A stretch of DNA of 64,000 nucleotides, from the NCBI GenBank assembly GCA_045106415.1, contig JBGCEP010000030.1, positions 11,921 through 75,920 on the forward strand, in the 5' to 3' direction. The notes beneath the pieces were generated by a model that ran no database searches, was not told where the DNA came from, and saw nothing but the letters and a program-made list of their open reading frames with translations. Position 1 is the first letter of the stretch. Every line of letters starts with the position of its first letter. The position numbers were made by a program, and so were the translations under genes. Positions 31,121-61,235 of this stretch are shown one piece after another. This DNA comes from Oligoflexales bacterium (GTDB lineage Bacteria > Bdellovibrionota_B > Oligoflexia > Oligoflexales > Bog-1112).

Positions 31121-31150
31121 TTGACACAATCGTCATCATGAAAGTACCAT
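31121..31150 (+). promoter_or_regulatory. Candidate sigma70-type promoter for flbD-motAB
   Basis: TTGACA (31121-31126), an 18-nt spacer and TACCAT (31145-31150), 24 nt upstream of the flbD ATG. Confidence 0.35.
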
Positions 31151-31173
31151 GGAAGTAATGACCATTCCAACGG

Positions 31174-31407
31174 ATGTTTTCTTTGATACTCGTCACTCGA
31201 CTTGATAATTCCAAACTTTTAGTCAATCTCGATAATGTAAAATATATCGAATCGACTCCTGATACTTTAATCCGTTTTATGAACGGAGACTCTCTTATGG
31301 TGTTAGAGAGTTTAGAGGAAGTTCAAAACCGGGCTCTCTTTGCTATGCAAAAATTTATGACAGACACACACAAACAACCACAGAATTTTCAACCTGAGGT
31401 ACTCTAA
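31174..31407 (+). CDS. flbD: Flagellar protein FlbD
   Basis: 77 aa. The sequence ..LILVTRLDNSKLLVNLDNVKYIESTPDTLIRFMNGDSLMVLESLEEV fits the FlbD family pattern. It lies directly upstream of motA, with a TAATG overlap. Confidence 0.8.
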   Translation: MFSLILVTRLDNSKLLVNLDNVKYIESTPDTLIRFMNGDSLMVLESLEEVQNRALFAMQKFMTDTHKQPQNFQPEVL

Positions 31408-32167: not shown

Positions 32168-32983
32168 ATGGCAAAAAAAAAATGTCCAGAATTTGAAAAC
32201 CACGAAAGATGGCTTGTCAGCTACGCCGACATGCTCACACTACTTTTCGCAGTATTTGTTGTTCTTTTCGCCCTCAAAGACGGTGGGGGGGGAGAAGAAA
32301 CTCAAGAGACAGCAGGCTCTATGCAAGAAAGCTTTAGTACACCTCTTGAAGATATTCCTATTGATAGAAAAACGGGATCTCTACCGAATGGAGGAAGCGT
32401 TTTTGAGTACTTTCAAGGCGAAAATGTAACACCACCACCTATTCAGAAATATGATGATCAAAAACAAGAAAAAGGTCTTATCGACACTGAGATGCATAAA
32501 TTTAAAACACAGTTAGAGAATCGGCTTTATGGCCCTCATAAATTTAGAAGTCATGATGAATCAGGAAACTCTAGGCTTGTTGAAATCCGACGTTCGTCCA
32601 CAGGTTTTCAGCTCAAAATACTTGCGCGACACTTCTATGATGAAGGTGAGATTGACGTTAAAAAAACGGCTATCCCCCAAGTCGATAAAGTCATCACAAT
32701 GCTTAAAAAATTAAGGCGCACCGTCGTAATCGAAGGACACACTGATAATTTACCAACAAAAGGTCGCTGGTCAAACTGGGATGTCTCTGCTTTACGAGCC
32801 ACTCATTTAGTTAAGTACATGATAGAAAAACATAAATTCCCCCAGTCAAAACTTGCCGCCTCGGGGTATGGGGATACTCGACCGATTGCACATAACGGGA
32901 CACAAGAGGGACGCCAACTTAACAGACGGATAGAAATTCATGTTCATTATGATCGCTCTAAGCATCACGATCCTCTGCGCTGA
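32168..32983 (+). CDS. motB: Flagellar stator protein MotB/PomB (OmpA-like C-terminus)
   Basis: The N-terminus WLVSYADMLTLLFAVFVVLF contains the channel Asp. The C-terminus reads IEGHTDN.P......SNWDVSALRA..V..Y..YGDTRP.A.N....GR..NRRIEI. Confidence 0.9.
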   Translation: MAKKKCPEFENHERWLVSYADMLTLLFAVFVVLFALKDGGGGEETQETAGSMQESFSTPLEDIPIDRKTGSLPNGGSVFEYFQGENVTPPPIQKYDDQKQEKGLIDTEMHKFKTQLENRLYGPHKFRSHDESGNSRLVEIRRSSTGFQLKILARHFYDEGEIDVKKTAIPQVDKVITMLKKLRRTVVIEGHTDNLPTKGRWSNWDVSALRATHLVKYMIEKHKFPQSKLAASGYGDTRPIAHNGTQEGRQLNRRIEIHVHYDRSKHHDPLR

Positions 32984-40798: not shown

Positions 40799-41608
40799 TT
40801 ATTTATCACGACATGTCTCTTGAAATTCGTCTTGTAGCGATTTATTGAGATTCATAGCTTTTGCAAAATCGTACTCACGACCAGAATAAATACGGCCATA
40901 ATACTCTGAAGCTTCAACAGATTTTTCTGGGGCCATATTCTCCAAAATCGCTGTGACTTGTTTTTGTTTCATATTTTTAAATAGAGCAACTCTAAGATCT
41001 TTATCCATTTTTTCAAAAATTGGAGCAGCTTTTTTAGGTTCCATTTTCACATAAAATGCTATTAAGTTTTCCAAACGATCTTCTTGAAGTTTTTTTTCTT
41101 TTTGCAACGTTGATTGAAAAAAATCCATCTCGTCATCAATTTTTTGAAGTTTTTCATCAATGCTTACTTCTAAATTTTGAAGCTGCTTATATTTATCTTT
41201 GAGTAGTTCAAGTCTATCTCGGACTTGACCCTGTAAACGCTCAACAATTTTAACATAACGCGCTGCATCTTCACGTTTAGCTTTTTCTGAATTAAAGTTT
41301 GGGAGCTCCAATAAACCGTGAAAAAAACCTTTTCTTTCATCTTTTTTTGTTGTATTTGCTTTTGCGATTTTTAAGCCGTCTTCATTCATTTGAAAACCTA
41401 ATAAATCTTCATCGTCAGTAGCTGCTTCTTCAATATTTTCTTCTATAATCTCCGCTGTCTCTTCATCAAGAGATTCTTGTTCTTCTGAAATTCCTTCTTC
41501 ATCTGCACCCACTAAATTTTTTTCACCAAACTCTAAATCAAACACCCAAAAAGCGGATACTACACACAAAATAGAAATTTTTAGAATAAAAATATTACGA
41601 AGAAACAT
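40799..41608 (-). CDS. MotE/FlbB (YlxF)-family flagellar protein
   Basis: It has an N-terminal TM segment, an acidic region and a coiled coil. The C-terminus PKKAAPIFEKMDKDLRVALFKNMKQKQVTAILENMAPEK is MgtE-N-like. It sits directly after fliJ, as ylxF does in Bacillus. Confidence 0.55.
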   Translation of the reverse strand: MFLRNIFILKISILCVVSAFWVFDLEFGEKNLVGADEEGISEEQESLDEETAEIIEENIEEAATDDEDLLGFQMNEDGLKIAKANTTKKDERKGFFHGLLELPNFNSEKAKREDAARYVKIVERLQGQVRDRLELLKDKYKQLQNLEVSIDEKLQKIDDEMDFFQSTLQKEKKLQEDRLENLIAFYVKMEPKKAAPIFEKMDKDLRVALFKNMKQKQVTAILENMAPEKSVEASEYYGRIYSGREYDFAKAMNLNKSLQDEFQETCRDK

Positions 41609-41618: not shown

Positions 41619-42062
41619 TTACATATTATATTTCCAATTATAGCTATCATCTTGCGATTCTTGCTCTTGTCTTGAAACTTCATTTGCGAGTTCTTGCCAT
41701 GTTCGATGTTTCATTTCTTCTGCTGCTTTCACAGACGCATGAGCTTCTTGAAGTTTTTTACCTTGCATTTGAACTCTGCGCTGAATATTTGATAACTCTA
41801 TATGTGATTTCGACCAATTTAATTTGGCATGATCTGCTAAATCTTCAAATGTTGATAACGAGTGCCGCTCAGATGAAGAACGCAATTGATTTACTTTATC
41901 AACGCCTTCTAAATATTGTTTTTGATACTCATTAAGTCTTTGTTCAAGGTTTTGTTTTTCAAATAAAAGATCTGAAAAAACTTTTTGTTCATTCTCAAGA
42001 GCAACTTTTCTCATCTTTAAAATAGTCACTAGTCTTTGATTTTTTTTAATGTAATCTCTCAT
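41619..42062 (-). CDS. fliJ: Flagellar export chaperone FliJ
   Basis: A 147-aa coiled-coil protein immediately downstream of fliI. The call rests on size, composition and position. Confidence 0.65.
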   Translation of the reverse strand: MRDYIKKNQRLVTILKMRKVALENEQKVFSDLLFEKQNLEQRLNEYQKQYLEGVDKVNQLRSSSERHSLSTFEDLADHAKLNWSKSHIELSNIQRRVQMQGKKLQEAHASVKAAEEMKHRTWQELANEVSRQEQESQDDSYNWKYNM

Positions 42063-42085: not shown

Positions 42086-43399
42086 TCATGAATGCAACAA
42101 CCTGATAAGCCCTTGTATAGTATCTTTATAATCAGAGAGCTTTGTTGTATCTTGTTTTAAATACTCTTCAATTCTAGGCATTAAAAGTAATGCTCTATCG
42201 AGTTTAGGATTCGTTCCTTTTTCATAAGAACCTAATTGAATAAGGTCATAATTTTCTTCATATTGACTAATCAACGCCTTTAACTCAGTTGCAATCTTAC
42301 GATGTTGCTCAGGAACAACATCAATCATGACTCGACTTGCACTTGAAGTGACTTCAATAGCAGGAAAATGTCCTTGTGATGCAAGTTTTCGAGATAAATT
42401 AATATGCCCATCAAGAATAGATCGGACAGCATCAGGAATGGGGTCATTAAAATTATCACCATCTACTAAAACCGTATATAGCCCACTGATACTTCCATGC
42501 CCTTTTTCCTGAGGTCCACAACGCTCTAGTAAGCGAGGCAATAAAGAATAAACAGACGGTGGATAACCTTTTGTTGTTGGAGGCTCACCAGCTGCCAGTC
42601 CTATTTCTCTTTGAGCCTGTGCCACACGCGTCAAGGAATCAAGCATAAGTAATACACGTTTATTACAAGATGAAAAATATTCAGCAATAGCCGTAGCGAC
42701 AAAAGCTCCACGAATTCTCATTAAAGGAGATTGATCACTCGTGACAGCGATGACAACAGACTTCTTAAGACCTTCTTCTCCTAGTTCTCTTTCAATAAAT
42801 TCACGAACTTCTCGACCTCTTTCACCAATTAATGCAATGACATTAATATCCGCAGATGATCCTCGAGCAATCATCCCCATCAAGACACTTTTACCAACAC
42901 CAGATCCGGCCATAACACCAGTTCTTTGCCCCTCACCAAAGGTCAACAACCCATCAATCGCTCTCACCCCTAATGGCAATGGTTGGTGAATTCTAGATCG
43001 TTTTAACGGATTAGGTGCTTCTTTCTGCAAGGGACATAAACGAGCATCTGGCGATAAAGAAAAAGAACCATTTAAGCTATTTAAAAATGGATCTAATACA
43101 TGTCCCAATAAATGAGATCCTGCCCAAATATGGTCATGTACAGTGATAGGCTCAACGCGAGCACCAACATAAATACCACCAATGTTAGTGTAAGGCATTA
43201 ATAGAGTGCGGCCATTTTTAAAACCTACGACTTCTGCAGGAAGAATATCAGACGCTAAAATTTGTACTATCGTACCCAGACTACACTTTGGCATTGAGGC
43301 TTCGATCATTTGTCCCACAACATCCAGTACTCGACCAGATTGAGACCAAGATGATTTTGAAAATTCAAAATCACTACGTTTAAACTGTCGGATCTGCAT
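42086..43399 (-). CDS. fliI: Flagellum-specific ATPase FliI
   Basis: 437 aa. It has Walker A GSGVGKSVL, Walker B LLMLDSLTR, and ..SITGLYTVLV-like SISGLYTVLVDGDN. Confidence 0.95.
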   Translation of the reverse strand: MQIRQFKRSDFEFSKSSWSQSGRVLDVVGQMIEASMPKCSLGTIVQILASDILPAEVVGFKNGRTLLMPYTNIGGIYVGARVEPITVHDHIWAGSHLLGHVLDPFLNSLNGSFSLSPDARLCPLQKEAPNPLKRSRIHQPLPLGVRAIDGLLTFGEGQRTGVMAGSGVGKSVLMGMIARGSSADINVIALIGERGREVREFIERELGEEGLKKSVVIAVTSDQSPLMRIRGAFVATAIAEYFSSCNKRVLLMLDSLTRVAQAQREIGLAAGEPPTTKGYPPSVYSLLPRLLERCGPQEKGHGSISGLYTVLVDGDNFNDPIPDAVRSILDGHINLSRKLASQGHFPAIEVTSSASRVMIDVVPEQHRKIATELKALISQYEENYDLIQLGSYEKGTNPKLDRALLLMPRIEEYLKQDTTKLSDYKDTIQGLIRLLHS

Positions 43400-44636
43400 C
43401 TTCTTCGCCTATATCAAAAAGCCTTGTGTCGGCTTGCTCTAGAAAATCTCTTACTTTTCGTGAAATAGCACCTTCAATATCACCCCACTCAGTAACAATC
43501 TTAAAATCTTCCCCTTCTACTGAAGCATCTACCTTAAGGTGTGATAAAAAGTCCTCTGACACTATACCTTTTAGTTTTTCAAACATATTTTCATGAACAT
43601 GAACATGATAGTTATCGTCTTTAACACCATCTGTAATAGCTTTTTGAATAACTTCAGAAAAAATCCTAGGGCTTTCTGCTAAAGCATGACCTAAAACCCC
43701 TTCACAAATTGCTGCTGTAAGCTCCTGAAAATTATCTTGTATTTTATTCATGATTTGTGGTTTTAAAGCTTGGATTTCTCTTAAAGCTTCTTGCATGTTT
43801 TGTAAATTGGTTTCAGTTTTTACTTTATGCTCATCTGCGGCTTGCTTTAAACCTTCTTCATAGCCTTGATCAAAACCACTCTTTTGGCCTTCTTGGATAG
43901 CTTGATTTTTTAACTCCTCTAAATTATCTAAATGTTCTTTGTGTTCAATTTCTAAATTTTTCTGATTTTCTAATTCAGAATCAGTTGGCTTTAAATCTTG
44001 AGCGATATTTGGTTCAGAGGAATCATCAATATGAAACGTATCACGCTTTTCTTTTAAATCTGACAAAGGGTCGTTTTGGATCTCATTTTCAGGATGTATT
44101 GATAATGGATTAGCAGAATCTTGAGTTTCTTCTAAGACATTTAAATTACCGCTCTGTTCAGGAACTTTATTTTGATCTCGTTGGTTTTCCTCTTGATTAA
44201 ATTCTGATTTTTCATTTTCAATATTTTTTGTTTCCCGCGTTCCATTCGGCTGATGACGCTTCTGATCCATTCTCGCAAAATGCTCTTCTAGCTCATTATC
44301 AAAATCTTCTTCTTCTTCTTGCGATAAGCCTTTTTTATGTAATGCTTTCTGCCTTGCTTCTTTCCAATCATTGTTAAAATCACGCGGCTTCATTGTTGGA
44401 GGAGCGTGATCTTCAGCTAATGAAGGAAAGACATTTGGTGGTAATGCAGTATTTTTTTCTACAACTTTTGGATCATGAAGGCGTGAGTGAACTATATTAC
44501 CTGCAGGATTATCCGGATAAATTGTAAAATCAGCATGCAGTTGATGAAAGTCAAAAGATTCAAGCTTTACAACTTTCATCAAACGAGCATTATGTTTAAT
44601 AAAACGACCTTTGAGTTTATTACCATCATGTAGCAT
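43380..44636 (-). CDS. fliH: Flagellar assembly protein FliH with a long low-complexity N-terminal extension
   Basis: The C-terminal ~180 aa are FliH/YscL-like (GFDQGYEEGLKQA..; ..FKIVTEWGDIEGAISRKV). It overlaps fliI by 20 nt. Residues ~60-240 are acidic and Asn/Gln-rich. Confidence 0.75.
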   Translation of the reverse strand: MLHDGNKLKGRFIKHNARLMKVVKLESFDFHQLHADFTIYPDNPAGNIVHSRLHDPKVVEKNTALPPNVFPSLAEDHAPPTMKPRDFNNDWKEARQKALHKKGLSQEEEEDFDNELEEHFARMDQKRHQPNGTRETKNIENEKSEFNQEENQRDQNKVPEQSGNLNVLEETQDSANPLSIHPENEIQNDPLSDLKEKRDTFHIDDSSEPNIAQDLKPTDSELENQKNLEIEHKEHLDNLEELKNQAIQEGQKSGFDQGYEEGLKQAADEHKVKTETNLQNMQEALREIQALKPQIMNKIQDNFQELTAAICEGVLGHALAESPRIFSEVIQKAITDGVKDDNYHVHVHENMFEKLKGIVSEDFLSHLKVDASVEGEDFKIVTEWGDIEGAISRKVRDFLEQADTRLFDIGEEDADPTV

Positions 44637-44645
44637 AAGAGCCTA

Positions 44646-46259
44646 TTATTGATTAGGATTCAACAACATACGAATCGCTTCTGTTGTACGTTTTGGTTCG
44701 TTTCTAGCAAGGAATAACACTTGCTCTTGAGGGGATAACTTATCGAATGGCACATCTTCTTGAATCTGCACATTTTGAATACTTCCCAACTCAAGGTCTG
44801 GTTTGTATTCTTCAACAATAGCTTGTGCTTCTTTTCTTTCTGGATCATACGAAAGCCACCGAAAATAAGGCCTTACAATAAAGACAAAGAATAAAACAAG
44901 TGCAAGAGCAGAGGAAGCCGAGACAGCCAAAGTTGATAAATACTCTCGATCTTCTTGTTTAATTTTACTTAATTCCATCATTTGAAATGGGTCTAATTGG
45001 AACATCATATTTTCAACAGTGATCACATCGCCACGAACTTCTTTATACCCAACAGCACCTTCAATAAGTTTTCGTATTTTAAGCATTTCTTCTGGGCTTC
45101 TTTCTTCAAAAGCCGGAGTAGAACCATCAATAGGATAAATTTGTTTACCGTCAACAATCACAGAAACTGTAAGTCGATTAATCGTTCCTAGCTGTAAAGT
45201 TTTTTGGCTCACAGTTTTCGAAACTTCATAATTTAAAAGCTCTGTACTCTTCTCGCTTCCTGCTTTCGACCCTGAAGCTGCGAGTTGTTCTTGCTCCCCA
45301 GGTACGTTTGACTTACTTCCGGGAATTCCTGTCGGATTTAACCCTTCACCACTCATGGTCATGCCACTACTGTTTTTAGATAAAACAGCAACATCATCAG
45401 GATCCACATCAACGATACGTTGAGTTTCACGTGTAAAATCGATATCTGCATCAACTTTTGCTTCAACTCTATCTGGACCAACGACTCGGCCAACGATAGC
45501 TCGAATGCGTTCTTCCATACCAGATTCTATACTCTTTTTAAATTCCAAAAGATCTTGCGTTTGTTTTGTTCCTGGATCACGAGATTCAATCTCAGTTAAC
45601 ATTCGTCCATCTGAGTCAATAATTGTGATATTTGTTGGTTTTAATCCTTCTACAGAGTTTGACACAAGATGTTGAATTCCTTTCACTTGCTTTCGATCAA
45701 TCCCTGCATTTCTTCTCGTTCGAATATAAACAGCTGCAGTGGGTTCTTTTTCTTCACGAACAAAAAGGCTAATTTTAGGTAAAACAATATGAACACGAGC
45801 AGATTGGATGCCATCAATAGCGGCTATCGTTCTTGATAATTCTCCTTGAACAGCTCTTAGCCTTTGAATTTCTTGCTCAAACTGAGTTCGTGAAAAGTCT
45901 TCCTCATCAAATGCTTCCCATCCAACAACACCTTTTTCAGGCAACCCTTCTTGAGAAAGTTTAATACGTAATGTTGCAAGTTGCTCAACAGGGACTTTGA
46001 TTCCTTTAGCGTCAATCACATATTCATCAAATCCACTTCCCTGCAAATACCTTGTTACTTCTGCAACATCTTTTGACGTCAAATCAACAAAAAGATATCG
46101 CATTGTTGAACGCTCCTGTAGAAGCATAAGCGTCATCAGTCCACCACCTATAAATAAAAAGGCTATTCCCATCGCAATTTTTTGCACAAAGGATAATTTT
46201 TCCCAAATTTTTCGAGAAGCCTCAAAAATATTATTAAAGATTGAACTGATTTGATCCAC
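44646..46259 (-). CDS. fliF: Flagellar MS-ring protein FliF
   Basis: 537 aa. An N-terminal TM segment is followed by ..IDGIQSARVHIVLP.. (the YscJ/FliF signature) and a C-terminal TM segment. Confidence 0.9.
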   Translation of the reverse strand: MDQISSIFNNIFEASRKIWEKLSFVQKIAMGIAFLFIGGGLMTLMLLQERSTMRYLFVDLTSKDVAEVTRYLQGSGFDEYVIDAKGIKVPVEQLATLRIKLSQEGLPEKGVVGWEAFDEEDFSRTQFEQEIQRLRAVQGELSRTIAAIDGIQSARVHIVLPKISLFVREEKEPTAAVYIRTRRNAGIDRKQVKGIQHLVSNSVEGLKPTNITIIDSDGRMLTEIESRDPGTKQTQDLLEFKKSIESGMEERIRAIVGRVVGPDRVEAKVDADIDFTRETQRIVDVDPDDVAVLSKNSSGMTMSGEGLNPTGIPGSKSNVPGEQEQLAASGSKAGSEKSTELLNYEVSKTVSQKTLQLGTINRLTVSVIVDGKQIYPIDGSTPAFEERSPEEMLKIRKLIEGAVGYKEVRGDVITVENMMFQLDPFQMMELSKIKQEDREYLSTLAVSASSALALVLFFVFIVRPYFRWLSYDPERKEAQAIVEEYKPDLELGSIQNVQIQEDVPFDKLSPQEQVLFLARNEPKRTTEAIRMLLNPNQ

Positions 46260-46275: not shown

Positions 46276-46608
46276 TTAGACAGGCATTCTCATAACTTCT
46301 TGATATGCTTCAAGGGCTCTATTTCTAACTTGAACCATCAAATTAAAACTTAACTCTGCTTGACTTAAAGCCAGCATAGTTTCATGAATATTCTCAGTTT
46401 TTCCAGAAGCGATATGGGAGGCCATTTGATCTGCATTTTTTTGAGATTCATCCACACTATTTACTGCTTCTTTTAGTGTTTCGCTAAAAGAAGCAGTTTG
46501 CCCTGATGATTCTTCAAAATTCGCTTGAAGTGGGCCCTGCCCTTCAGAAAGATCATTTTGTTTTTTCAGTGCTTCTCGAAAAAGATTCTGAAATTCAATT
46601 TTTGTCAT
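46276..46608 (-). CDS. fliE: Flagellar hook-basal body protein FliE
   Basis: 110 aa with C-terminus ..MLALSQAELSFNLMVQVRNRALEAYQEVMRMPV, typical of FliE. Confidence 0.9.
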   Translation of the reverse strand: MTKIEFQNLFREALKKQNDLSEGQGPLQANFEESSGQTASFSETLKEAVNSVDESQKNADQMASHIASGKTENIHETMLALSQAELSFNLMVQVRNRALEAYQEVMRMPV

Positions 46609-46627: not shown

Positions 46628-47068
46628 CTAACGACCTATCTCTAATGCTCTCATTGCCATATCTTTAGCATCATTTAATGCTGTTGCATTGGCTTCATAA
46701 GCACGTGTTGCAGCAATCATATTCACCATTTCATTCATAATCTGAATATTTGGCATCGAGACATAGCCGTCTTGGTCGGCATCTGGATGTGACGGTTCAA
46801 AAACTCTTTTCGGTTCACGACTATCTTTATGGATATCGGTCACAGTTACAGATTTGAGCTGGGTATGCATTGTTTCATCGAGAAAGTCTTCAAATTCATT
46901 ACTCACAGGAGTAGCTGAAAAAACAACATCTTTACGGCGATAAGGTCCACCTTCAGCTGTACGCGTTGTTTGAGCATTCGCAAGGTTTGAACTTAATAAG
47001 TTCATTCTTACCCGTTGTGCAGCAAGACCACTTGAACTAATTTTCATCGATTTAAAAAAACCGCTCAT
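46628..47068 (-). CDS. flgC: Flagellar basal-body rod protein FlgC
   Basis: It contains ..SSSGLAAQRVRMNLLSSNLANAQTTRT..GPYRRK.. and a C-terminal ..YEANATALN segment. Confidence 0.95.
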   Translation of the reverse strand: MSGFFKSMKISSSGLAAQRVRMNLLSSNLANAQTTRTAEGGPYRRKDVVFSATPVSNEFEDFLDETMHTQLKSVTVTDIHKDSREPKRVFEPSHPDADQDGYVSMPNIQIMNEMVNMIAATRAYEANATALNDAKDMAMRALEIGR

Positions 47069-47080: not shown

Positions 47081-47497
47081 CTATCGACCACCATTTACCG
47101 CATATCGAAGCATCCCTATTTTTCTACGAAGTACTTCTGTCGTTGTTCTGTATAAAATTTGATTTTGAGCCATTTCCATCATTTCAAGATCAACGTCAAC
47201 AGTGTTTCCATCTTCCCCAACACTTTCACTGGGCCGCACATAAACCTCAGGATCAAAACTTCCATCAGCTCGAGCAAAAGGGTGTTGTTTATGCCTTGGG
47301 TCTGATGTTTTTAGCTGAGCAGTTTCTGAGCTATCTTGAAACGCTTGAAGCTGGTCCTCAAAATCATAACCAAGCGCCCGAAACCCTGGGGTTTCGGCAT
47401 TTGAGATGTTTGATGACAAAACATGACTTCGTTCAACCCTTTGATCAAGGGATGCAATCTGAAGCCTATCTTGATAACTAAAGATCCCTTGCATCAT
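47081..47497 (-). CDS. flgB: Flagellar basal-body rod protein FlgB
   Basis: It contains ..LDQRVERSHVLSSNISNAETPGF.. and ends ..YRTTTEVLRRKIGMLRYA. It overlaps the upstream activator gene by about 20 nt. Confidence 0.9.
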   Translation of the reverse strand: MMQGIFSYQDRLQIASLDQRVERSHVLSSNISNAETPGFRALGYDFEDQLQAFQDSSETAQLKTSDPRHKQHPFARADGSFDPEVYVRPSESVGEDGNTVDVDLEMMEMAQNQILYRTTTEVLRRKIGMLRYAVNGGR

Positions 47498-48554
47498 GAC
47501 CTTGGCTCCAGTTCATAGGGGGTGTGACATCAAAACCCGCAGCTGTATATTCATTAATTTTATTTCGCAGTGTTCTTAAGCTGATGCCTAATGTTTTTGC
47601 TGCATGAGTTCTATTACCTCTATGATTTTTTAATGTCTCTAAGATGAAGTGTGTTTCAACAATCTTTAAAGGAGTTCCAATTGGAAGTGCTGAAATCCAA
47701 TCACTTGCTAACGAGCCTCCTTGGTTTTCTAAAGGAAGGTGCTCACACTGAATCACCTGACCATTTGCAACTATCGCAGCTCTTTGTACAACGTTATGTA
47801 ATTCTCTAACATTTCCAGGCCAATGATGTGCTTCAAGTCGCGCTTTTGCTTCATCAGAAAAGGTAAGATTTGGTTTATCAAAGTTTTTCGCACCTTCTTG
47901 TAAAAACAACTCACCTAAATGGAGAATATCTTTTGGTCTCTCTCTTAGTGGAGGAATTTCAATGTGAAAAACATACAAACGATAGTAAAGATCTTGACGA
48001 AACTGTCCTTTTTTAATGGCCTCTAAAATATCTCTATTTGTCGTTGCAATAATTCGAGTGTCCACTGCTATAGGATCACTTCCGCCAATTCTTTGAATTT
48101 CTTTTTCTTGAATTGCTCGCAATAATTTAGCCTGCAACCCAATTTCTATTTCTGTTATTTCATCAAGGAGAAGAGTCCCTCCTTTTGCTTGTTCGAATCG
48201 CCCCAGATGCCTTTGATGCGCTCCTGTAAAAGCTCCCTTTTCAAAACCAAAAAGCTCACTTTCTAGCAAAGTAGGTGGTAAAGCCGCACAATTTACAGCA
48301 ATAAATGGACGGTCACCTTGATTTGCTGCATTATGCACAGCCCTTGCGACAACTTCTTTACCAACACCAGACTCACCTGTAATTAACACTGGGACTTGTG
48401 TATCCGCAATTTGCCAGATGATGTCTTGAATTCTCATCATTTTTTCGTCAGCTGTTGAAAAAAGCGTCTTTGCCACATCTTGGTTAGCTCTACGCCCCTG
48501 CCGACTTTGAATAAAGTCAAGATAGGTGCTCGCTTGTGGGCGAGAAGAGTTCAT
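47478..48554 (-). CDS. Sigma54-dependent transcriptional activator (bEBP) lacking an N-terminal regulatory domain
   Basis: It has Walker A GESGVGKE, GAFTGA (FEKGAFTGA), WPGNVRELHN and a C-terminal HTH (AAKTLGISLRTLRNKINEY). With ATG 48554, only about 30 aa precede the AAA+ core. Even the maximal ORF (to 48674) leaves fewer than 75 aa. Confidence 0.9.
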   Translation of the reverse strand: MNSSRPQASTYLDFIQSRQGRRANQDVAKTLFSTADEKMMRIQDIIWQIADTQVPVLITGESGVGKEVVARAVHNAANQGDRPFIAVNCAALPPTLLESELFGFEKGAFTGAHQRHLGRFEQAKGGTLLLDEITEIEIGLQAKLLRAIQEKEIQRIGGSDPIAVDTRIIATTNRDILEAIKKGQFRQDLYYRLYVFHIEIPPLRERPKDILHLGELFLQEGAKNFDKPNLTFSDEAKARLEAHHWPGNVRELHNVVQRAAIVANGQVIQCEHLPLENQGGSLASDWISALPIGTPLKIVETHFILETLKNHRGNRTHAAKTLGISLRTLRNKINEYTAAGFDVTPPMNWSQGHDARDL

Positions 48555-48612
48555 TGCTGTAGCAAGACTGTTGAAACGAGAATTACTCACGACGATTCCT
48601 TTCCATCCAGGT

Positions 48613-50916
48613 TTACTGGATAAGTTGCCTAAGTCGTTCTTTGGCAAGATTTGAATAAAAAAGACTGTCGCCATCCTGGCTCGCTTCTGTAAGAGCTTTC
48701 ATAGCTTCTTCTCGACGACCTGATTTATAAAGAAGGAGTCCTCCTTTATAGAGAGCTTCTGCTCGCCCTCCCCAATCCACACTCTCTCTAGCTGTAAAAG
48801 CATAAAGACGACCCGCTTTTAGCAGCTGATCAGCATGCCGATATTCTTCAGCAAGAGATATTAACTCTTCTGCCCAAACATCTTTTATTTGTTGATCTTC
48901 ACTAAGATCAGCTGGCTTGAATTTCTTAAATAAAAGGATGGTTCTTCTGCGTTCTGAGTCCAAACCAAGTTTTTGAAACTTCATTCTTAATTGTACCAGC
49001 ATTCTCATTTTTTCAAGAGTAGGAGAATACTGTTCTCTCCATTTAGAGTCAGATTGATTCACTTTAGAGTGAAGCGCATCTTCCCAAGTTTCTAGTATAA
49101 TTTTAGAAGGTATTGTCAAAATATCTGTGTTCATCATTGAGTCAACAAAATAATTTTGGTACGACAAACGAACATGATGTTTTTGTTCTTCTGTCATAGA
49201 AGACCAAATTCTTTTTAAAGATTGATCAGATTTTTTTTCAAGACTTCCATTTTGAGATCTCGCCGCAGCTTCAGCTAACCAAAAATAAGATTTAAATTTT
49301 AAATTTACGTTTTTTGATTTTTTTGAAATTTCATAAAATTTTTGCGCAGCGTCATCTTGGCCTAATTTACGGTAAGATTCAGCCACAGACCACGCTACTA
49401 GTGGGTTTTTCTTCACTTCCACAAAAAGATTAGGAATATTTTCCCACGACTCAATCACACCAATAAAATCTTCATCAGCACCCATCTGAATAAGATCTTT
49501 CTGGACTCTTTTAGAAATTTTCTTTAGAAGGAAAGCGACCCATGGATCTCTATCATGTTGGTATCTTTTCACCCATTCTTTTGCAAGATGACTTACACTA
49601 GAGTCCCATTTTCTTTTTAAAGACTCATGCAAAATTAAAGACAAAGAAAGAAAAGTACTTCTTCGACTTTCTACATTTTTCCAAGTTTTTATCAGATTTT
49701 TTAAACTTAATTTTGCAACTTTTGGAAACTTATCAACATGGCTATTCATTTGATTTGGTGATGTCCACCATATTTTTCTCAATTCTTTTTGAGCTCGCAT
49801 CTCATAATCATTTTTTCCAAAATGAAGATTTTCTAAATCTGCCACTAATGTTTGGAGCTTTGCATTGTTTGAGCTTCTTACAGCCTGAATTGCTTGAATA
49901 TCTAAATGTCTAAGCTGAGCCATACTGGCATAGATTTTACCTGGAAACCTCTCGGAGATAGCATCATAATAACCTTGCGCAAGAGTTAAATTACCTTGAC
50001 CAAAATGTGTTTCTGCAAATGCCCAGAGATGAAGAGGTTCTTTAGAAAAAATTGAAGAATCATGAAACAATACTTGTTGATATGCAACAAAAGCTCTGTT
50101 TTCATGACCAAAACTAAATAATTGCAAAGCATAATCAGCCATCGCTGAATAATCTTTCACCGCACTCATCTGTGCTTTTTTCTCCCAATCTTCACTTGGT
50201 TTTTTTCCATGAAGAGCAGAAACCTGCATAGGGAAAATATATTTAGGATATGTGGACCATGCTGGGCCTCTTCCTTTTGAGGATTTTTTCATAGCAACAG
50301 CCAACTCTTTTGACTGTTTTAATTTTTTAGGAGCTGGCTGTAACAAACGTCTTTTGGGGCCATTTGATGTTTGCGATAGATCCTGATGAGAAGTCCCTGT
50401 TTTCATCTGCATACGACTACGTTTAGTCGCTCGATTTGTTTGCTGGGAAATTGAGTTTAAAGATGTTGCTGATACTGTTGCATCAGCATGGAATCTTTTT
50501 GCTGAGATCTGGGTTCGCCATTGCATAGGTGGCAAAGGTAAGCCTGTAATTGGATCTGTTTGCTTCTGATATTGATCATCAAAGAGTTCAATTGAAATAC
50601 GGGGTGGATTTTTATATTCAGAGACTGTTGCTCTGACCTGAGCATCTCTAAAGGCAATTTTTAAGGTTACTAAAGATCCTGGAGATTCTTTTACAATAAT
50701 TCTACGTATCAGCGTTTCATCATAGTGTTCTAAAGCTTTAAGCTCTTCAGAGTGAGTTCCTTCAATTTCTAAGATAAGAGTTTTTGATGCTTCCTGCATG
50801 GAGACATGTAAAGGTCTTGGCTCTGAGAGGTGAAAAACTAATTCACTATAACGACCAGCACAAAAACCAGCACTGCTCATTAAAAGAATGATCATCATTA
50901 AAAGTGTTCTCAGCAC
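48613..50916 (-). CDS. Periplasmic AMIN-like domain plus TPR repeat protein
   Basis: The track ORF runs to 50952. I prefer GTG 50916 (GGAG 7 nt upstream), because the predicted sigma54 transcription start lies near 50937. The signal is LRTLLMMIILLMSSAGFCA. The AMIN-like segment is SKTLILEIEGTHSEEL..LIRRIIVKESPGSLVTLKIAF..PRISIELFD. Many TPR-like helices follow. Confidence 0.6.
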   Translation of the reverse strand: MLRTLLMMIILLMSSAGFCAGRYSELVFHLSEPRPLHVSMQEASKTLILEIEGTHSEELKALEHYDETLIRRIIVKESPGSLVTLKIAFRDAQVRATVSEYKNPPRISIELFDDQYQKQTDPITGLPLPPMQWRTQISAKRFHADATVSATSLNSISQQTNRATKRSRMQMKTGTSHQDLSQTSNGPKRRLLQPAPKKLKQSKELAVAMKKSSKGRGPAWSTYPKYIFPMQVSALHGKKPSEDWEKKAQMSAVKDYSAMADYALQLFSFGHENRAFVAYQQVLFHDSSIFSKEPLHLWAFAETHFGQGNLTLAQGYYDAISERFPGKIYASMAQLRHLDIQAIQAVRSSNNAKLQTLVADLENLHFGKNDYEMRAQKELRKIWWTSPNQMNSHVDKFPKVAKLSLKNLIKTWKNVESRRSTFLSLSLILHESLKRKWDSSVSHLAKEWVKRYQHDRDPWVAFLLKKISKRVQKDLIQMGADEDFIGVIESWENIPNLFVEVKKNPLVAWSVAESYRKLGQDDAAQKFYEISKKSKNVNLKFKSYFWLAEAAARSQNGSLEKKSDQSLKRIWSSMTEEQKHHVRLSYQNYFVDSMMNTDILTIPSKIILETWEDALHSKVNQSDSKWREQYSPTLEKMRMLVQLRMKFQKLGLDSERRRTILLFKKFKPADLSEDQQIKDVWAEELISLAEEYRHADQLLKAGRLYAFTARESVDWGGRAEALYKGGLLLYKSGRREEAMKALTEASQDGDSLFYSNLAKERLRQLIQ

Positions 50917-50947
50917 AATCTCTCTCCAAGGTGTATCCATTGTATTG

Positions 50948-50963
50948 AGCAAATACCGTGCCA
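50948..50963 (-). promoter_or_regulatory. Sigma54 (-24/-12) promoter
   Basis: The minus strand reads cTGGCACGgtatTTGCTc. This matches every conserved position and the spacing of YTGGCACG-N4-TTGCW. It is the only such match I found in the window. It sits at the head of an operon that encodes a sigma54 activator and flagellar genes. Confidence 0.75.
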
Positions 50964-51001
50964 GTTTTCAAACCGTTGCTATAAAGGCCTTGGACATTTT
51001 T

Positions 51002-51060
51002 TTGACATGAATTTGGCATAGGCACGTCAATGAGATGACGAATGCGCCAATTTATCGTCA
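51002..51060. promoter_or_regulatory. Two inverted repeats with TGAC...GTCA cores, candidate activator binding sites (UAS)
   Basis: IR1 is TTGACATG-N13-CACGTCAA (51002-51030, 7 of 8 bp). IR2 is TGACGA-N13-TCGTCA (51036-51060, perfect). Their centres lie about 80 and 110 bp upstream of the predicted sigma54 start. Confidence 0.3.
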
Positions 51061-51111
51061 GAGGAGTCGGCATGATGACAGTTTCTAATGATTCTTCTTA
51101 TGAAGCGTGTC

Positions 51112-59046: not shown

Positions 59047-61235
59047 AATATTTCATACTCACTATTTTTATAATAACCATGAAGACTCATGCTCAAATAC
59101 CTGAAATAAAATTGCATAAGATTGAAAATGCTTTAACCAATCTAAACCAACAACTCAGTTCTTCTCTTGGAAATCACGAAAAAACAATCCCCTCTAAATT
59201 TGCCCTGAGTGAGAGTTTTTTTTGGTTAGAGAAAAAAAGCTGGCATACAGTCATAGCTCTTTTAGAACCTCAAACTTTTAATGATCCTAAGCAACAACTC
59301 AAAAGATTATACGCTCTAGGTAAATCTTATGAAGACATTAATAACCATAAGTCATCTCAATTTTATCAGCAGTATCTTAACCTATCTCAACACCAGCCAT
59401 CATACCCTCCACAGTTTATGGAGGTCATTCAGTCTCTTCTTCTTGTTTCACCGAAAAATCTTCAAGGGCAGCAAATTTCTTCAATTTTAACACTTAACTT
59501 AAATAAAGAAACACGCCACAAAGTCTTACTTTTTATCGCTACATTTGCACTTAAACAAAACAAAACAGCTATGGCTAGAAAATGGCTAGAAACAATAATA
59601 AAAAATGAACCCACACCGTTGATACTTTCAAAAACCCTTTATTTCTTAGGGACTGTAGCAACTAGAGAAAGACGATATATAGATGCAGAATCTTTTTTTG
59701 ATTCCGCCTTAGGAACAAAAACTCCAGATTCGACTCTGTGGAAAAATAAATCAAAACTTGCCCTTGGGCATATCTCTCGCGATAAGAAAAAGTATAAAAA
59801 AGCTCTTAATTTTTATAAATCGGTCTCTTCAACATCAGAACTTTACCCTAAAGCGATTGAAAACTCTGCTCATATGCTTATCCGCCTTAAACAGTATCAT
59901 TCTGCTATTCCTCTCTTGGAGAAAAGGTTAACTTATCCAGGTAATTATTTGTTTTTTCAAAAACTTCTTGCATGGTTAGATGTACAAGTAGGAGAAAAAG
60001 AAAAGTCGAAAAAATCAATTGCTTCTATTCAGAAAAAATTGAATAAAGATAGAAATTTTATTCTTCATGAAATATCTTCATCTAAAAAAATTTCAAGCCT
60101 ACGCTTTCATCAACTAGCCAGAGTTATTGAAGAGTGGATACCTCATCATCATAATTTGCACAAAGTAAAAAAAGTTTTCCATAAAATTTCACAAAACGAA
60201 AAAAAACTTTATGGATTGCAGTCGCGCATGAAAAACATAGATTATCTTATGATTTATTTAGGTCCCGAACGCCTCCTTCAATATCTTAAAAATGATTATT
60301 TTCAGATAAAGAACATCACTGATCACGCCATTAATCAAGGTCATGACCTTATTCAGGCAACAACTCAACAATTAAATTCTCAAATACCATCTTACTTAGC
60401 AGAGCATTTAAAAAATTCACAAAAAGAGAGAATAAAAAGAAAATCTGAAACATTCAATATTCAAAAAAAATATAAAGTATGGAGATTTATTCAAGAAAGT
60501 TTAAATCATTTAAAAAATGAATCAACACTTAAACAAAGACTAGAGAATATAGAAGCAAAACTTCAAGGAATATCTTTTCGGTCAAAAAAACAACCAACGC
60601 TACAAAACTACGATTATTCAATGGATCCTTACTTTAATAAATCAAGAAAGATCAGAAAAGAAATTCAAAGAGTAGTCCGACTCACTAAAGACCTTCAACT
60701 TTCATCTTGGTCCCAAGCAACTCTTATTGATAATTTAGCCCTAGAATCATTTAAAGACTTTAAAGGTATAGAAGAAGATTGGCAAAAACTTTCAAAAATA
60801 ATGAAAAAAGACAGAACCCCAATCGGAACGAGTCGGTATGCAAAAAACATTAATTTGCACGAGCAGTGGAGTTATCTCGCAGGTCATCTTCTGGAAAAAA
60901 TCACAAATCTTAAAAAAAGAGAAGAAGACAGCATTCATAATTTTATCTTAAAAAAGTCAAATATCCATAAAAAAATCAAATTTCTACGAGAGGAAAAAAA
61001 TAAAAATCAGCGTCTCATCGAAGAGGAAAGTGTCAAAATATTGACATATCTCAAGCCCTTATTCATCACAAAATTTAACAAAATAGAGGCTGATCTCATA
61101 AAATGGGAAGGTGATATGGAGCATCAAAGAGCACTTCAAATCGCCAAGAAAAAACAAAAAATGAAAAATGCGATTAAACTTGAAGAAGAAATACTTCTGC
61201 CATCTCAACAAGAAGCAAGAGGCGTTCCATTATGA
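59043..61235 (+). CDS. Secreted Lys-rich TPR and coiled-coil protein, function unknown
   Basis: 730 aa with signal MKYFILTIFIITMKTHA. It has a 4-nt overlap with the upstream gene. TPR-like helices fill the first half and a Lys-rich coiled coil the second half. Confidence 0.55.
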   Translation: MKYFILTIFIITMKTHAQIPEIKLHKIENALTNLNQQLSSSLGNHEKTIPSKFALSESFFWLEKKSWHTVIALLEPQTFNDPKQQLKRLYALGKSYEDINNHKSSQFYQQYLNLSQHQPSYPPQFMEVIQSLLLVSPKNLQGQQISSILTLNLNKETRHKVLLFIATFALKQNKTAMARKWLETIIKNEPTPLILSKTLYFLGTVATRERRYIDAESFFDSALGTKTPDSTLWKNKSKLALGHISRDKKKYKKALNFYKSVSSTSELYPKAIENSAHMLIRLKQYHSAIPLLEKRLTYPGNYLFFQKLLAWLDVQVGEKEKSKKSIASIQKKLNKDRNFILHEISSSKKISSLRFHQLARVIEEWIPHHHNLHKVKKVFHKISQNEKKLYGLQSRMKNIDYLMIYLGPERLLQYLKNDYFQIKNITDHAINQGHDLIQATTQQLNSQIPSYLAEHLKNSQKERIKRKSETFNIQKKYKVWRFIQESLNHLKNESTLKQRLENIEAKLQGISFRSKKQPTLQNYDYSMDPYFNKSRKIRKEIQRVVRLTKDLQLSSWSQATLIDNLALESFKDFKGIEEDWQKLSKIMKKDRTPIGTSRYAKNINLHEQWSYLAGHLLEKITNLKKREEDSIHNFILKKSNIHKKIKFLREEKNKNQRLIEEESVKILTYLKPLFITKFNKIEADLIKWEGDMEHQRALQIAKKKQKMKNAIKLEEEILLPSQQEARGVPL

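What the first reader, a model, noticed from the sequence alone, without database searches (positions are those of the whole stretch)
47478..51060. Consensus sigma54 promoter and a regulatory-domain-less sigma54 activator head the flagellar rod/MS-ring/export operon
Seen: the minus strand at 50963->50948 reads TGGCACGgtatTTGCT, which matches every conserved position and the spacing of the -24/-12 consensus. The predicted +1 is near 50937, followed by GGAG and GTG 50916. On the same strand, with gaps of 60 nt or less or with overlaps, come an AMIN/TPR protein, an enhancer-binding protein (Walker A, GAFTGA, C-terminal HTH) and flgB-flgC-fliE-fliF-fliH-fliI-fliJ. Upstream stop codons limit the activator to fewer than 75 aa before its AAA+ core, so it cannot carry a REC, FleQ, GAF or PAS domain. 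Two inverted repeats with TGAC..GTCA cores lie about 80 and 110 bp upstream of the predicted +1. Known: bEBPs bind upstream activating sequences 80-150 bp upstream. Domain-less bEBPs such as PspF and HrpR/S are controlled in trans by partner proteins. Flagellar sigma54 regulators described so far (FleQ, FlrA/C, FlgR, FleR) carry N-terminal control domains. Inference: the activator may sit behind its own target promoter, giving a positive feedback loop, and may be gated by an unknown partner. The co-transcribed AMIN/TPR protein cannot contact it directly, because it is periplasmic. This would be an undescribed variant of flagellar class control.
Basis: partly seen in the sequence, partly recalled or inferred. 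Interest (0 to 1): 0.6.

Follow-up and report, generated by a model that had tools for sequence, protein, structure and literature searches.

The report
Sigma-54 flagellar operon with short activator
An uncultured Oligoflexales bacterium drives its early flagellar genes from a conserved sigma-54 promoter with a conserved enhancer, and the same operon encodes a sigma-54 activator that has no sensory domain. The design is solid and may feed back on itself, but it resembles known lateral-flagella (LafK) and Rhodobacter (FleT) operons and is not a new kind of control.

Summary
TGGCACGgtatTTGCT (50963->50948, minus strand) is the only exact -24/-12 match in the window (0.06 expected by chance). A -24/-12 element is present at the same place in all 14 related loci that carry an intact-GAFTGA orthologue. 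It heads a ten-gene operon: a PflA-like periplasmic protein, a 370-aa activator, then flgB-flgC-fliE-fliF-fliH-fliI-fliJ and an MgtE_N protein. The activator has AAA+, lid and HTH_8 domains and GAFTGA. It has only a disordered stub of about 45 aa before the AAA+ core. That shape is conserved in more than 120 homologues, so it is not a frameshift artefact.

Upstream lie 14-bp palindromes: GTCA-N6-TGAC, and in relatives also GCCA-N6-TGGC, usually 20-22 bp apart. They are about 50-fold enriched there. In two relatives the promoter and palindromes sit directly in front of a lone activator gene. The recognition helix is invariant. I therefore favour self-activation (about 0.55). A cascade driven by a second activator is not excluded.

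The novelty claim fails. LafK and FleT are described flagellar activators without sensory domains, and fleT-fliEFGHIJ is sigma-54 dependent. AMIN was not detected in the first gene. rpoN could not be checked. Verdict: a new member of a known kind, of moderate interest.

The parts
51046..51059 (-). Degenerate upstream enhancer site A' (GACGATAAATTGGC). It corresponds to the GCCA-N6-TGGC palindrome of relatives; only the right half (TTGGC) is kept in this window.
   Evidence: In alignment A3, TTGGC is invariant in 9 loci. Site A lies 18-22 bp upstream of site B in 9 relatives.
51026..51039 (-). Enhancer site B, the palindrome GTCATCTCATTGAC (GTCA-N6-TGAC). It is centred about -95 from the predicted +1.
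   Evidence: The exact pattern occurs 4 times in the window against 0.78 expected. GTCA-N6-TGAC is exact upstream of the promoter in 12 of the 13 loci (L087 has GCCA..TGAC) and in L090. This class of palindrome occurs 23 times in 13 x 320 nt upstream regions, against 22 in the other ~221 kb.
50948..50963 (-). Sigma-54 (-24/-12) promoter TGGCACGgtatTTGCT. The predicted +1 is near 50937.
   Evidence: Only exact match in the window, 0.06 expected. TGGCA[CT]-N5-TTGC is found at the same place in L001-L006, L081, L082, L087-L090, with a TGGCGT variant in L086. TGGCA and TTGC are invariant columns in A3.
50914..50927 (-). Ribosome-binding site GGAGAG (50927-50922) and GTG start (50916-50914) of the first gene. 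The leader is about 21 nt.
   Evidence: Read directly from the sequence. The 767-aa product equals NCBI protein P0121 at 100% identity.
48613..50916 (-). PflA-like secreted protein (767 aa): signal helix, beta-sandwich 23-113, disordered linker 119-194, TPR superhelix 200-767.
   Evidence: AlphaFold2 model, pLDDT 79.6. Foldseek top PDB hit is 9hmf_K, the C. jejuni periplasmic motor scaffold (E 6e-7, TM 0.19). PflA is described with the same three-part layout (PMC12222027). Pfam finds only a weak TPR_6 hit and no AMIN.
47478..48590 (-). Sigma-54 activator (bEBP), 370 aa, with no N-terminal sensory domain. It has a disordered stub carrying the conserved STYLDFIQ motif, an AAA+ core with GAFTGA, a lid, and an HTH_8 domain.
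   Evidence: Pfam; NCBIfam best hit FlbD at 391 bits over profile positions 120-450 of 454; alignment A1; AlphaFold2 model; stop-codon bounds on the N-terminus.
47081..47497 (-). flgB (proximal rod)
   Evidence: Weak Flg_bb_rod hit. Conserved position in all orthologous operons.
46628..47068 (-). flgC (proximal rod)
   Evidence: Flg_bbr_C and Flg_bb_rod.
46276..46608 (-). fliE
   Evidence: FliE, E 1e-28.
44646..46259 (-). fliF (MS ring)
   Evidence: YscJ_FliF and YscJ_FliF_C.
43380..44636 (-). fliH, with an acidic N-terminal extension of about 200 aa. No fliG lies between fliF and fliH.
   Evidence: FliH domain at residues 278-395; NCBIfam FliH; sequence.
42086..43399 (-). fliI (export ATPase)
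   Evidence: ATP-synt_ab and T3SS_ATPase_C.
41619..42062 (-). fliJ-like gene
   Evidence: Weak YscO-like hit. The orthologues hit PF02050 FliJ.
40799..41608 (-). MgtE_N-domain protein, the last gene of the operon
   Evidence: MgtE_N, E 9e-7. Same position in L081, L082 and others.

Best explanation
This is a sigma-54-dependent early flagellar operon with its own enhancer. The operon encodes the sensor-less FlbD-like activator that most probably binds that enhancer, so flagellar gene expression reinforces itself.

**Proposed mechanism.**
1. Sigma-54 RNA polymerase sits in a closed complex on TGGCACG-N4-TTGC (50963-50948).
2. Dimers of the 370-aa activator bind, through an invariant Fis-type HTH, the 14-bp palindromes about 70-100 bp upstream of the -24 element. 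These are GTCA-N6-TGAC and, in relatives, also GCCA-N6-TGGC, usually two helical turns apart.
3. The dimers assemble into an AAA+ ring, contact sigma-54 through GAFTGA and open the promoter.
4. The transcript encodes a PflA-like periplasmic motor protein, the activator itself, proximal rod proteins, the MS ring and the export ATPase module.

**Control of the activator.** It has no REC, FleQ, GAF or PAS domain. Its activity must therefore be set by its amount, or by something acting in trans on the AAA+ core or on the short conserved N-terminal STYLDFIQ peptide.

**What is shown.** The promoter, operon and protein architecture, and the conservation of promoter and palindromes.

**What is inferred.** Sigma-54 dependence in vivo, that this protein is the one bound at the palindromes, and any gating partner.
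For: **Promoter.**
- It is unique in the window.
- It is conserved in the window and 13 further loci whose proteins are 56-69% identical.
- It is the only site of 17 bits or more in each 9-21 kb locus.

**Palindromes.**
- There are 23 in 4.2 kb of upstream sequence against 22 in about 221 kb elsewhere.
- In the alignment of nine intergenic regions, all but three of the 24 invariant columns lie in the A right half, in B, or in the -24 and -12 boxes.
- L006 has no divergent hldE neighbour but keeps the palindromes.

**Link to the activator gene.** In L005 and L090 the PflA-like gene and flgB onward are absent, yet A, B and the promoter lie directly upstream of the activator gene.

**DNA-binding domain.** The HTH stretch GNRTHAAKTLGISLRTLRNKINE is almost entirely invariant in 20 orthologues, only the first K varying in two sequences, matching the invariant half-sites. 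GTCA-N6-TGAC has the half-sites and spacing of the proposed FleQ box GTCaNTAAAtTGAC (PMC6120874).

**Missing N-terminal domain.**
- Pfam finds no domain there.
- Stop codons bound the N-terminus.
- The 120 best database hits are 313-398 aa, 116 of them 349-379 aa.
- The AlphaFold2 stub is disordered apart from one helix at residues 20-30.

**Co-variation.** The one distant relative with DNA available (P0151, 48% identical) has lost GAFTGA, and no sigma-54 promoter or palindromes precede its gene.
Against: - No binding or transcription data exist.
- rpoN is not in the window and could not be searched for in this genome.
- A sigma-54 promoter is silent without activator, and no sigma-70-like promoter of 9/12 or better was found on the operon strand in the intergenic region (50917-51106) or just upstream of the activator gene. 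The only two hits on that strand lie deep inside the PflA-like gene (49145) and the last gene (41016). A pure self-loop therefore has no visible way to start.
- The closest documented operon of this shape, R. sphaeroides fleT-fliEFGHIJ, is switched on by a different activator, FleQ.
- In this window site A is half degenerate.
- The DNA-binding domain shows no specific sequence similarity to the FleQ chains in the PDB. The FleQ-box resemblance is therefore only a resemblance.
Confidence: 0.55

Rival explanations
1. Cascade rather than loop. The promoter and palindromes are served by a different, unlinked flagellar activator (a FleQ/FlrA-type master). The operon-encoded sensor-less activator is a second-tier regulator that turns on later genes (hook, distal rod, fliA), like fleT in R. 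sphaeroides or flrBC in Vibrio.
For: - The R. sphaeroides fleT-fliEFGHIJ operon is activated by FleQ with sigma-54, and FleT acts afterwards (PMC7277832; PMC10084136).
- This solves the start-up problem, since no sigma-70-like promoter was found in the intergenic region or just upstream of the activator gene.
- The GTCA-N6-TGAC box resembles the box proposed for FleQ, a REC-like-domain master regulator.
Against: - No second bEBP lies in the 64-kb window or in any of the flanks examined.
- The operon-encoded protein keeps a nearly invariant HTH, unlike FleT, which has none.
- In L005 and L090 the enhancer and promoter stay attached to the lone activator gene.
- The genes behind the promoter are the earliest structural class, which in Vibrio and Pseudomonas are the master regulator's direct targets.
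Confidence: 0.3
2. The palindromes belong to another transcription factor, for example one acting on the divergent hldE gene or a global regulator. The activator works from other sites or from solution.
For: - The palindromes lie in a shared 190-bp divergent intergenic region with hldE in most loci.
- Some bEBPs activate without binding DNA (FlgR; PMC3930126).
Against: - L006 lacks the hldE neighbour but keeps A and B, 224-246 bp upstream of the -24 TGG.
- The A-B spacing, mostly 20-22 bp, and the position, mostly 54-125 bp (extremes to 246 bp) upstream of the -24 element, are typical of bEBP enhancers (general knowledge).
- The activator retains a strongly conserved HTH_8.
Confidence: 0.1
3. 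The -24/-12 match is fortuitous and the operon is transcribed from a sigma-70 or sigma-28 promoter.
For: No rpoN gene could be shown. At one mismatch, matches are as common as chance predicts (5 found against 3.5 expected).
Against: - The exact match has an expectation of 0.06 per window.
- TGGCA and TTGC are invariant in otherwise unalignable intergenic DNA of relatives.
- A GAFTGA-bearing activator is co-encoded.
- No sigma-70-like site is found in the intergenic region on that strand.
Confidence: 0.03

Closest known systems
LafK of the lateral flagellar systems (Vibrio parahaemolyticus, Aeromonas)
   Same: - It is a sigma-54 flagellar activator listed as lacking a separate signal-recognition domain while keeping the activator core (PMC3162934).
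[quoted passage not shown]
- From my own memory, not verified here: fliEFGHIJ follow lafK.
   Different: - It belongs to Gammaproteobacteria.
- Class I transcription, including lafK, is reported as sigma-70 dependent in Aeromonas (PMC4481668).
- Here the best profile match is FlbD, and flgBC lie between the activator gene and fliE.
- Sequence relatedness to LafK could not be tested because I had no reference sequence.
FleT / fleT-fliEFGHIJ operon of Rhodobacter (Cereibacter) sphaeroides Fla1
   Same: An activator gene without an N-terminal domain heads an MS-ring and export operon that is itself transcribed from a sigma-54 promoter (PMC7277832).
   Different: - FleT also lacks the HTH and works as a hetero-oligomer with FleQ, which activates the fleT promoter on its own (PMC10084136).
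- The protein here keeps a conserved HTH_8, and no second activator is seen nearby.
FlbD of Caulobacter crescentus (with FliX)
   Same: - It is the best-scoring curated family (NF050807, 391 bits, profile 120-450/454).
- Rhodospirillaceae FlbD-type genes near fliF are 51% identical over AAA+ and HTH.
- It is encoded with early flagellar genes and controlled in trans by a partner rather than by phosphorylation (PMC3930126; PMC7064773).
   Different: - FlbD keeps a receiver domain of about 120 aa.
- The score here is below the family cutoff of 750.
- FlbD represses the promoter of its own early operon (ftr4 at fliF), which is the opposite sign to the loop proposed here.
- No FliX was found in the window.
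FleQ / FlrA master regulators of Pseudomonas and Vibrio
   Same: - They activate sigma-54 promoters of the fliE-fliJ class.
- The proposed FleQ box GTCaNTAAAtTGAC has the same half-sites and spacing as site B (PMC6120874).
- FleQ is restrained in trans by FleN binding (PMC10084136).
   Different: - They carry an N-terminal FleQ/REC-like domain.
- Their genes are not reported behind their own sigma-54 target promoter.
- AAA+ similarity to FleQ (226 bits) is lower than to ZraR or NtrC1.
PspF and HrpR/HrpS
   Same: They are bEBPs without an N-terminal domain, controlled in trans by PspA or HrpV acting on the AAA+ domain (PMC10084136).
   Different: They are not flagellar. Their AAA+ similarity is much lower (PspF 200 bits against 261 for the best hit).
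PflA of Campylobacter and Helicobacter (for the first gene of the operon)
   Same: - It is periplasmic, with an N-terminal beta-sandwich, an unstructured linker and a long TPR superhelix (PMC12222027).
- The top Foldseek PDB hit is the C. jejuni scaffold model.
   Different: - There is no detectable sequence similarity.
- TM-score is only 0.19 because of the flexible multi-domain shape.
- The role as a stator-scaffold spoke is untested here.

Membership tests
Bacterial enhancer-binding protein (sigma-54 activator) | AAA+ sigma-54 interaction domain (PF00158) with Walker A and B motifs | tested here: met
   PF00158, E 5e-67. GESGVGKE and LLLDEITE are present.
Bacterial enhancer-binding protein (sigma-54 activator) | GAFTGA loop that contacts sigma-54 | tested here: met
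   FEKGAFTGA at residues 116-124. G119, F121 and A124 are invariant in 20 orthologues. Two relatives at 48% identity (P0151, P0153) have lost it.
Bacterial enhancer-binding protein (sigma-54 activator) | C-terminal Fis-type HTH (PF02954) | tested here: met
   HTH_8, E 1.4e-12. The recognition region is almost entirely invariant, one Lys varying in two of 20 sequences.
Sensor-less bEBPs (type Ic of Francke et al. 2011: PspF, HrpR/S, LafK) | No N-terminal signal-recognition domain | tested here: met
   No Pfam or NCBIfam hit before residue ~44. At most 62 codons are available upstream in 6 loci. AlphaFold2 shows residues 1-48 disordered except a low-confidence helix at 20-30.
FlbD (NCBIfam NF050807 equivalog) | Score at or above the curated cutoff (750 bits), with full-length match including the receiver domain | tested here: not met
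   391 bits. The match covers profile positions 120-450 only, so the receiver part is absent.
FlbD (NCBIfam NF050807 equivalog) | FliX partner encoded in the genome | tested here: inconclusive
   No ORF of the window gave a FliX hit in the Pfam scans. The rest of the genome was not available.
LafK | Orthology to V. parahaemolyticus or Aeromonas LafK by sequence | not testable with these tools
   No LafK reference sequence or model was available. Only the domain layout and operon position could be compared, from the literature.
Sigma-54 promoter | GG at -24 and GC at -12 with TGGCAC-N5-TTGC spacing | tested here: met
   Exact match at 50963-50949.
Sigma-54 promoter | Conservation at the orthologous position | tested here: met
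   Present in the window and in 13 relatives with an intact-GAFTGA activator, including the TGGCGT variant in L086.
Sigma-54 promoter | rpoN present in the genome, and transcription start 12 nt downstream of the GC | not testable with these tools
   rpoN is not among the window genes.
Positively autoregulated bEBP operon | The encoded activator binds the enhancer of its own promoter | not testable with these tools
   Only indirect support exists: the linkage seen in L005 and L090, the invariant HTH, and the conserved palindromes.
   Only TPR_6 at E 0.0023, with no AMIN hit. The N-terminal domain is a predicted beta-sandwich.

The most novel reading that the evidence does not exclude
This is a self-activating, sensor-less FlbD-type master regulator. 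Its only control input is a so far unknown partner (or an assembly intermediate) that docks on the conserved N-terminal STYLDFIQ peptide. The result would be an all-or-none flagellation switch in Oligoflexia, wired differently from FleQ/FleN, FlbD/FliX and two-component flagellar systems. It would be co-expressed with a PflA-like stator-scaffold protein found outside the Campylobacterota.
Probability: 0.2. Interest if true: 0.55.

Novelty: new member of a known kind. Interest (0 to 1): 0.33.

Why it matters
- It gives a clean, testable regulatory module for flagellar control in Oligoflexia (Bdellovibrionota). My literature searches found no experimental study of this class.
- The module is a promoter, two defined 14-bp operator types, and a small activator with an invariant recognition helix.
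- It shows that the receiver domain of a FlbD-like regulator can be dispensed with in a whole clade. This parallels LafK and FleT.
- The short conserved N-terminal peptide is a candidate handle for trans control.
- The PflA-like first gene supports the published suspicion that PflA-type motor scaffolds extend to Bdellovibrio-like bacteria (PMC12222027).
- None of this overturns current understanding.

Tried and rejected
- **Frameshift hiding a sensory domain: rejected.** Stop codons bound the N-terminus in six loci, and the 120 best database hits are 313-398 aa, 116 of them 349-379 aa.
- **Other sigma-54 promoters in the window.** The next best sites (61229 on the minus strand, 22525 on the plus strand) lie inside coding regions of non-flagellar genes. 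I treat them as chance, although 22525 has a GTCA-N6-TGAC 67 nt upstream.
- **Defining the regulon.** The window holds no other flagellar operon with a sigma-54 site; the motA upstream region has none. A collection-wide pattern scan for the palindromes would have been swamped by chance hits, so I did not run it.
- **Genome and metagenome scans.** Run with the single protein, they mostly returned REC-containing paralogues. Only L001-L006 and L090 are orthologues.
- **Similarity of the DNA-binding domain to FleQ.** A PDB search with the C-terminal 80 aa hit only Fis, NtrC1 and ZraR weakly.
- **Inverted-repeat finder.** It reported nothing at seed 6, because the arms are only 4-5 nt.
- **Older papers.** Those on LafK and the FlbD ftr sites are not held. 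The LafK operon downstream genes and the ftr consensus therefore rest on memory or stay unchecked.
- **Paralogy of the three large TPR proteins in the window.** No sequence similarity was found.

Full report
**Source and setting.** The activator is 100% identical to a protein of an Oligoflexales MAG on a 98-kb contig. The window is mostly housekeeping genes. It also holds motA/motB, a chemoreceptor gene, and the operon in question on the minus strand from about 50.9 kb to 40.8 kb.

- The minus strand at 50963->50948 reads TGGCACGGTATTTGCT.
- It is the only exact TGGCAC-N5-TTGC in the window. Shuffles give a mean of 0.06, and 6 of 100 shuffles contain one. At one mismatch the pattern is no commoner than chance (5 found against 3.5 expected), so the exactness and the position carry the weight.
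- GC at 50950-50949 predicts +1 near 50937. GGAGAG (50927-50922) and GTG 50916 follow, and the resulting 767-aa product equals the NCBI protein.
- Downstream, with gaps of at most about 25 nt or with overlaps, come the activator, flgB, flgC, fliE, fliF, fliH, fliI, a fliJ-like gene and an MgtE_N-domain gene. The next gene is fmt.
- No strong terminator-like or sigma-70-like site interrupts this stretch on the operon strand.

**The activator.**
- Pfam finds Sigma54_activat (E 5e-67), AAA_lid_14 and HTH_8, and nothing before them.
- The sequence has GESGVGKE, GAFTGA and LLLDEITE.
- Orthologue N-termini align with a GTG at 48590 that is preceded by AAGGA. The ATG at 48674 used in the NCBI record overlaps the upstream gene by 62 nt.
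- In six orthologous genomic loci, in-frame stop codons leave at most 51-62 codons before the AAA+ core.
- The 120 best database hits are 313-398 aa, 116 of them 349-379 aa. A frameshift artefact is therefore excluded.
- AlphaFold2 (pLDDT 80) shows residues 1-19 and 31-48 disordered and a low-confidence helix at 20-30. That helix is the one conserved N-terminal feature, P-x-ASTYLDFIQ-x-RKGRRP. The STYLDF core is retained even in relatives at 48% identity.
- The closest curated family is Caulobacter FlbD: 391 bits over profile positions 120-450 of 454, which is everything except the receiver domain, and below the 750-bit cutoff.
- Rhodospirillaceae FlbD-type genes next to fliF are 51% identical over the shared part and do carry 120-150 extra N-terminal residues.

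**Conservation of the operon and promoter.**
- I compared the window with twelve orthologous loci: L001-L006, L081, L082 and L086-L089. Their activators are 56-69% identical to the window protein.
- Eleven of the twelve show the same order: hldE (divergent) | large TPR protein | activator | flgB flgC fliE fliF fliH fliI fliJ MgtE_N. L006 lacks the hldE neighbour. L005 is the exception described under natural experiments below.
- Three further loci for which no DNA was available show the same gene order.
- Every locus with DNA has TGGCA[CT]-N5-TTGC at the corresponding place. L086 has TGGCGT-N5-TTGC.
- With a matrix built from these sites, no other site of 17 bits or more exists anywhere in the 9-21 kb of each locus. 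This check is circular for the sites themselves but informative about the absence of others.
- In a MAFFT alignment of nine intergenic regions, all but three of the 24 invariant columns fall in four blocks: TTGGC, G.CA...TGAC, TGGCA and TTGC. The rest of the DNA does not align.

**The enhancer.**
The upstream one (TGACG-N15-CGTCA) is centred about -111.
- Their arms are too short to be significant alone.
- GTCA-N6-TGAC recurs upstream of the promoter in 12 of the 13 loci and in L090.
- In 8 of the 13, and in variant form in L090, it is preceded by a second palindrome, GCCA-N6-TGGC (consensus TTGCCAnGnTTTTGGC). The start-to-start offset is 18-22 bp, mostly 20-22, about two helical turns. L082, L086 and L088 keep only a partial A-like element or place it differently.
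- The class G[CT]CA-N6-TG[AG]C occurs 23 times in the 13 x 320 nt upstream segments and 22 times in the remaining ~221 kb, roughly a 50-fold enrichment.
- In this window the A site keeps only its right half (GACGATAAATTGGC, 51059->51046).
- L006 has no divergent hldE neighbour but keeps both palindromes 224-246 bp upstream of the -24 TGG. They therefore go with the flagellar promoter and not with hldE.
- GTCA-N6-TGAC has the half-sites and spacing of the FleQ box proposed for Pseudomonas, GTCaNTAAAtTGAC or GTCAaAAAAtTGAC (PMC6120874). L090 even reads GTCAAAAAGTTGAC.
- This is a resemblance only. The C-terminal domain has no specific similarity to FleQ among solved structures.

**Who binds the enhancer?** Three observations point to the operon's own product.
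1. The HTH stretch GNRTHAAKTLGISLRTLRNKINE is almost entirely invariant across 20 orthologues that are otherwise 56-68% identical, the first K varying in two sequences. This matches the invariant half-sites.
2. Two natural experiments exist. In L005 and L090 the TPR gene and flgB onward are absent from the locus, yet hldE | A | B | sigma-54 promoter | activator gene is intact, and a convergent gene follows. In L005 the leader is still homologous to that of L003 up to the point where the TPR gene would start. The promoter and enhancer therefore stay with the activator gene.
3. Two relatives at 48% identity (P0151, P0153) have lost GAFTGA and the Walker B aspartate but keep the HTH. The one with DNA available (L170) has neither a -24/-12 element nor the palindromes upstream of its monocistronic gene.

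None of this proves binding. Point 3 would also follow from loss of rpoN in that lineage.

**The main doubt.**
- A sigma-54 promoter has essentially no activator-independent activity (general knowledge).
- I found no sigma-70-like promoter on the operon strand in the intergenic region or just upstream of the activator gene. How the loop would be primed is unexplained.
- The best-studied operon of this shape, fleT-fliEFGHIJ of R. sphaeroides, is switched on by a separate activator, FleQ (PMC7277832).
- I therefore give self-activation 0.55 and a cascade 0.3.
- The rest of the genome could not be searched for rpoN or for a second flagellar bEBP.

**Comparison with what is known.**
- Francke et al. 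list LafK among activators lacking a signal-recognition domain, and FleT as lacking both that domain and the DNA-binding domain (PMC3162934; PMC10084136).
- V. parahaemolyticus has a motY(L)-lafK(L) operon, a periplasmic motor-protein gene immediately followed by the sensor-less activator gene (PMC13488335). This parallels the PflA-like gene followed by the activator gene here.
- FlbD, the nearest relative by profile, is controlled in trans by FliX rather than by phosphorylation, and it represses its own early operon (PMC3930126; PMC7064773).
- From memory: positive feedback of a bEBP through a sigma-54 promoter is familiar from glnALG and zraSR.
- What is new is the phylum, an independent loss of the receiver domain in a FlbD-like lineage, the defined two-palindrome enhancer, and the placement of the activator behind the promoter of the earliest structural genes.
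- My searches found no experimental work on flagellar regulation in Oligoflexia.

**The first gene.**
- Pfam does not support AMIN and gives only a weak TPR_6 hit. NCBI calls the protein a YbgF-family protein.
- The family evolves fast: 30-36% identity where the activators are 56-68% identical.
- The AlphaFold2 model (pLDDT 79.6) shows a signal helix, a beta-sandwich at 23-113, a disordered linker at 119-194 and a TPR superhelix at 200-767.
- The top Foldseek hit in the PDB is a 773-residue chain of the C. jejuni periplasmic motor scaffold (9hmf_K, E 6e-7). The TM-score is low (0.19), as expected for a flexible two-domain protein.
- PflA is described as 16 TPR motifs joined to an N-terminal beta-sandwich by an unstructured linker, and the authors suspect PflA in Bdellovibrio (PMC12222027).
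It is better seen as a motor structural gene than as a regulator.

**Verdict.**
- The sequence features are real and conserved well beyond chance.
- The mechanism is sigma-54 and enhancer-dependent transcription of an early flagellar operon that includes a sensor-less FlbD-like activator. Self-activation is likely but unproven.
- This is a new member of a known kind of system, in an unstudied clade. Interest is moderate (0.33).

Noticed in passing
window 48613-50916 (-) and 32940-35195 (+): The first operon gene has the PflA layout: beta-sandwich, disordered linker, TPR superhelix. Its top PDB fold hit is the C. jejuni motor scaffold. A second large TPR protein (751 aa) directly follows motA/motB and could be a PflB-type partner. 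The two share no sequence similarity with each other.
   Followed up: partly
window 43380-46259 (-); the same in L001-L004, L006, L081, L082, L086-L089: fliG is missing between fliF and fliH in the window and in every orthologous operon. FliH carries an acidic, low-complexity N-terminal extension of about 200 aa.
   Followed up: partly
proteins P0151 and P0153 (48% identical relatives); locus L170 4650-6092: Distant members of the same short family keep the STYLDF peptide and the HTH but have lost GAFTGA and the Walker B aspartate. One (P0153) still sits in the full flagellar operon. The other (L170) is monocistronic, with no sigma-54 promoter or palindromes upstream. They may be sigma-54-independent DNA-binding regulators.
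   Followed up: partly
window 22458-22540 (+): GTCAACTCTCTGAC lies 67 nt upstream of TGGAACATTACTTGCA. This is the same geometry as the flagellar enhancer and promoter, but it is inside a sodium:solute symporter gene with no ORF downstream. My rough estimate of the chance of such a pairing is about 0.04.
   Followed up: no
window 48588-48674 (-): The NCBI start of the activator (ATG 48674, 398 aa) overlaps the upstream gene by 62 nt. Orthologue alignment and an AAGGA ribosome-binding site favour GTG 48590 (370 aa).
   Followed up: yes
L005 5816-7098 and L090 4266-5592: In two relatives the PflA-like gene and the rod/MS-ring genes are absent from the locus, and the activator gene stands alone behind the conserved enhancer and promoter. 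Where their flgB-fliJ genes lie is unknown.
   Followed up: partly
window 24814-29492 (-): A prkA - DUF444 (yeaH-like) - spoVR (ycgB-like) gene trio, a conserved module, lies 11 kb from the flagellar operon.
   Followed up: no
window 31150-31406 (+): A small ORF just upstream of motA ends in ...LIRFMNGDSLMVLESLEEVQNRALFAMQKFM. From memory it looks like the small 'FlbD' protein found before motA in Bacillus and spirochaetes. It was not scanned. No sigma-54 site lies in the motA upstream region.
   Followed up: no
whole window: Base composition is strongly strand-asymmetric: C 22.3% against G 17.0% on the plus strand.
   Followed up: no
window 61230-64000 (+): A very large secreted protein (more than 930 aa, with a signal-peptide-like start) runs off the right end of the window. 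A 16.7-bit sigma-54-like site (61229, minus strand) sits at the junction with the preceding TPR gene, with no gene downstream of it.
   Followed up: no
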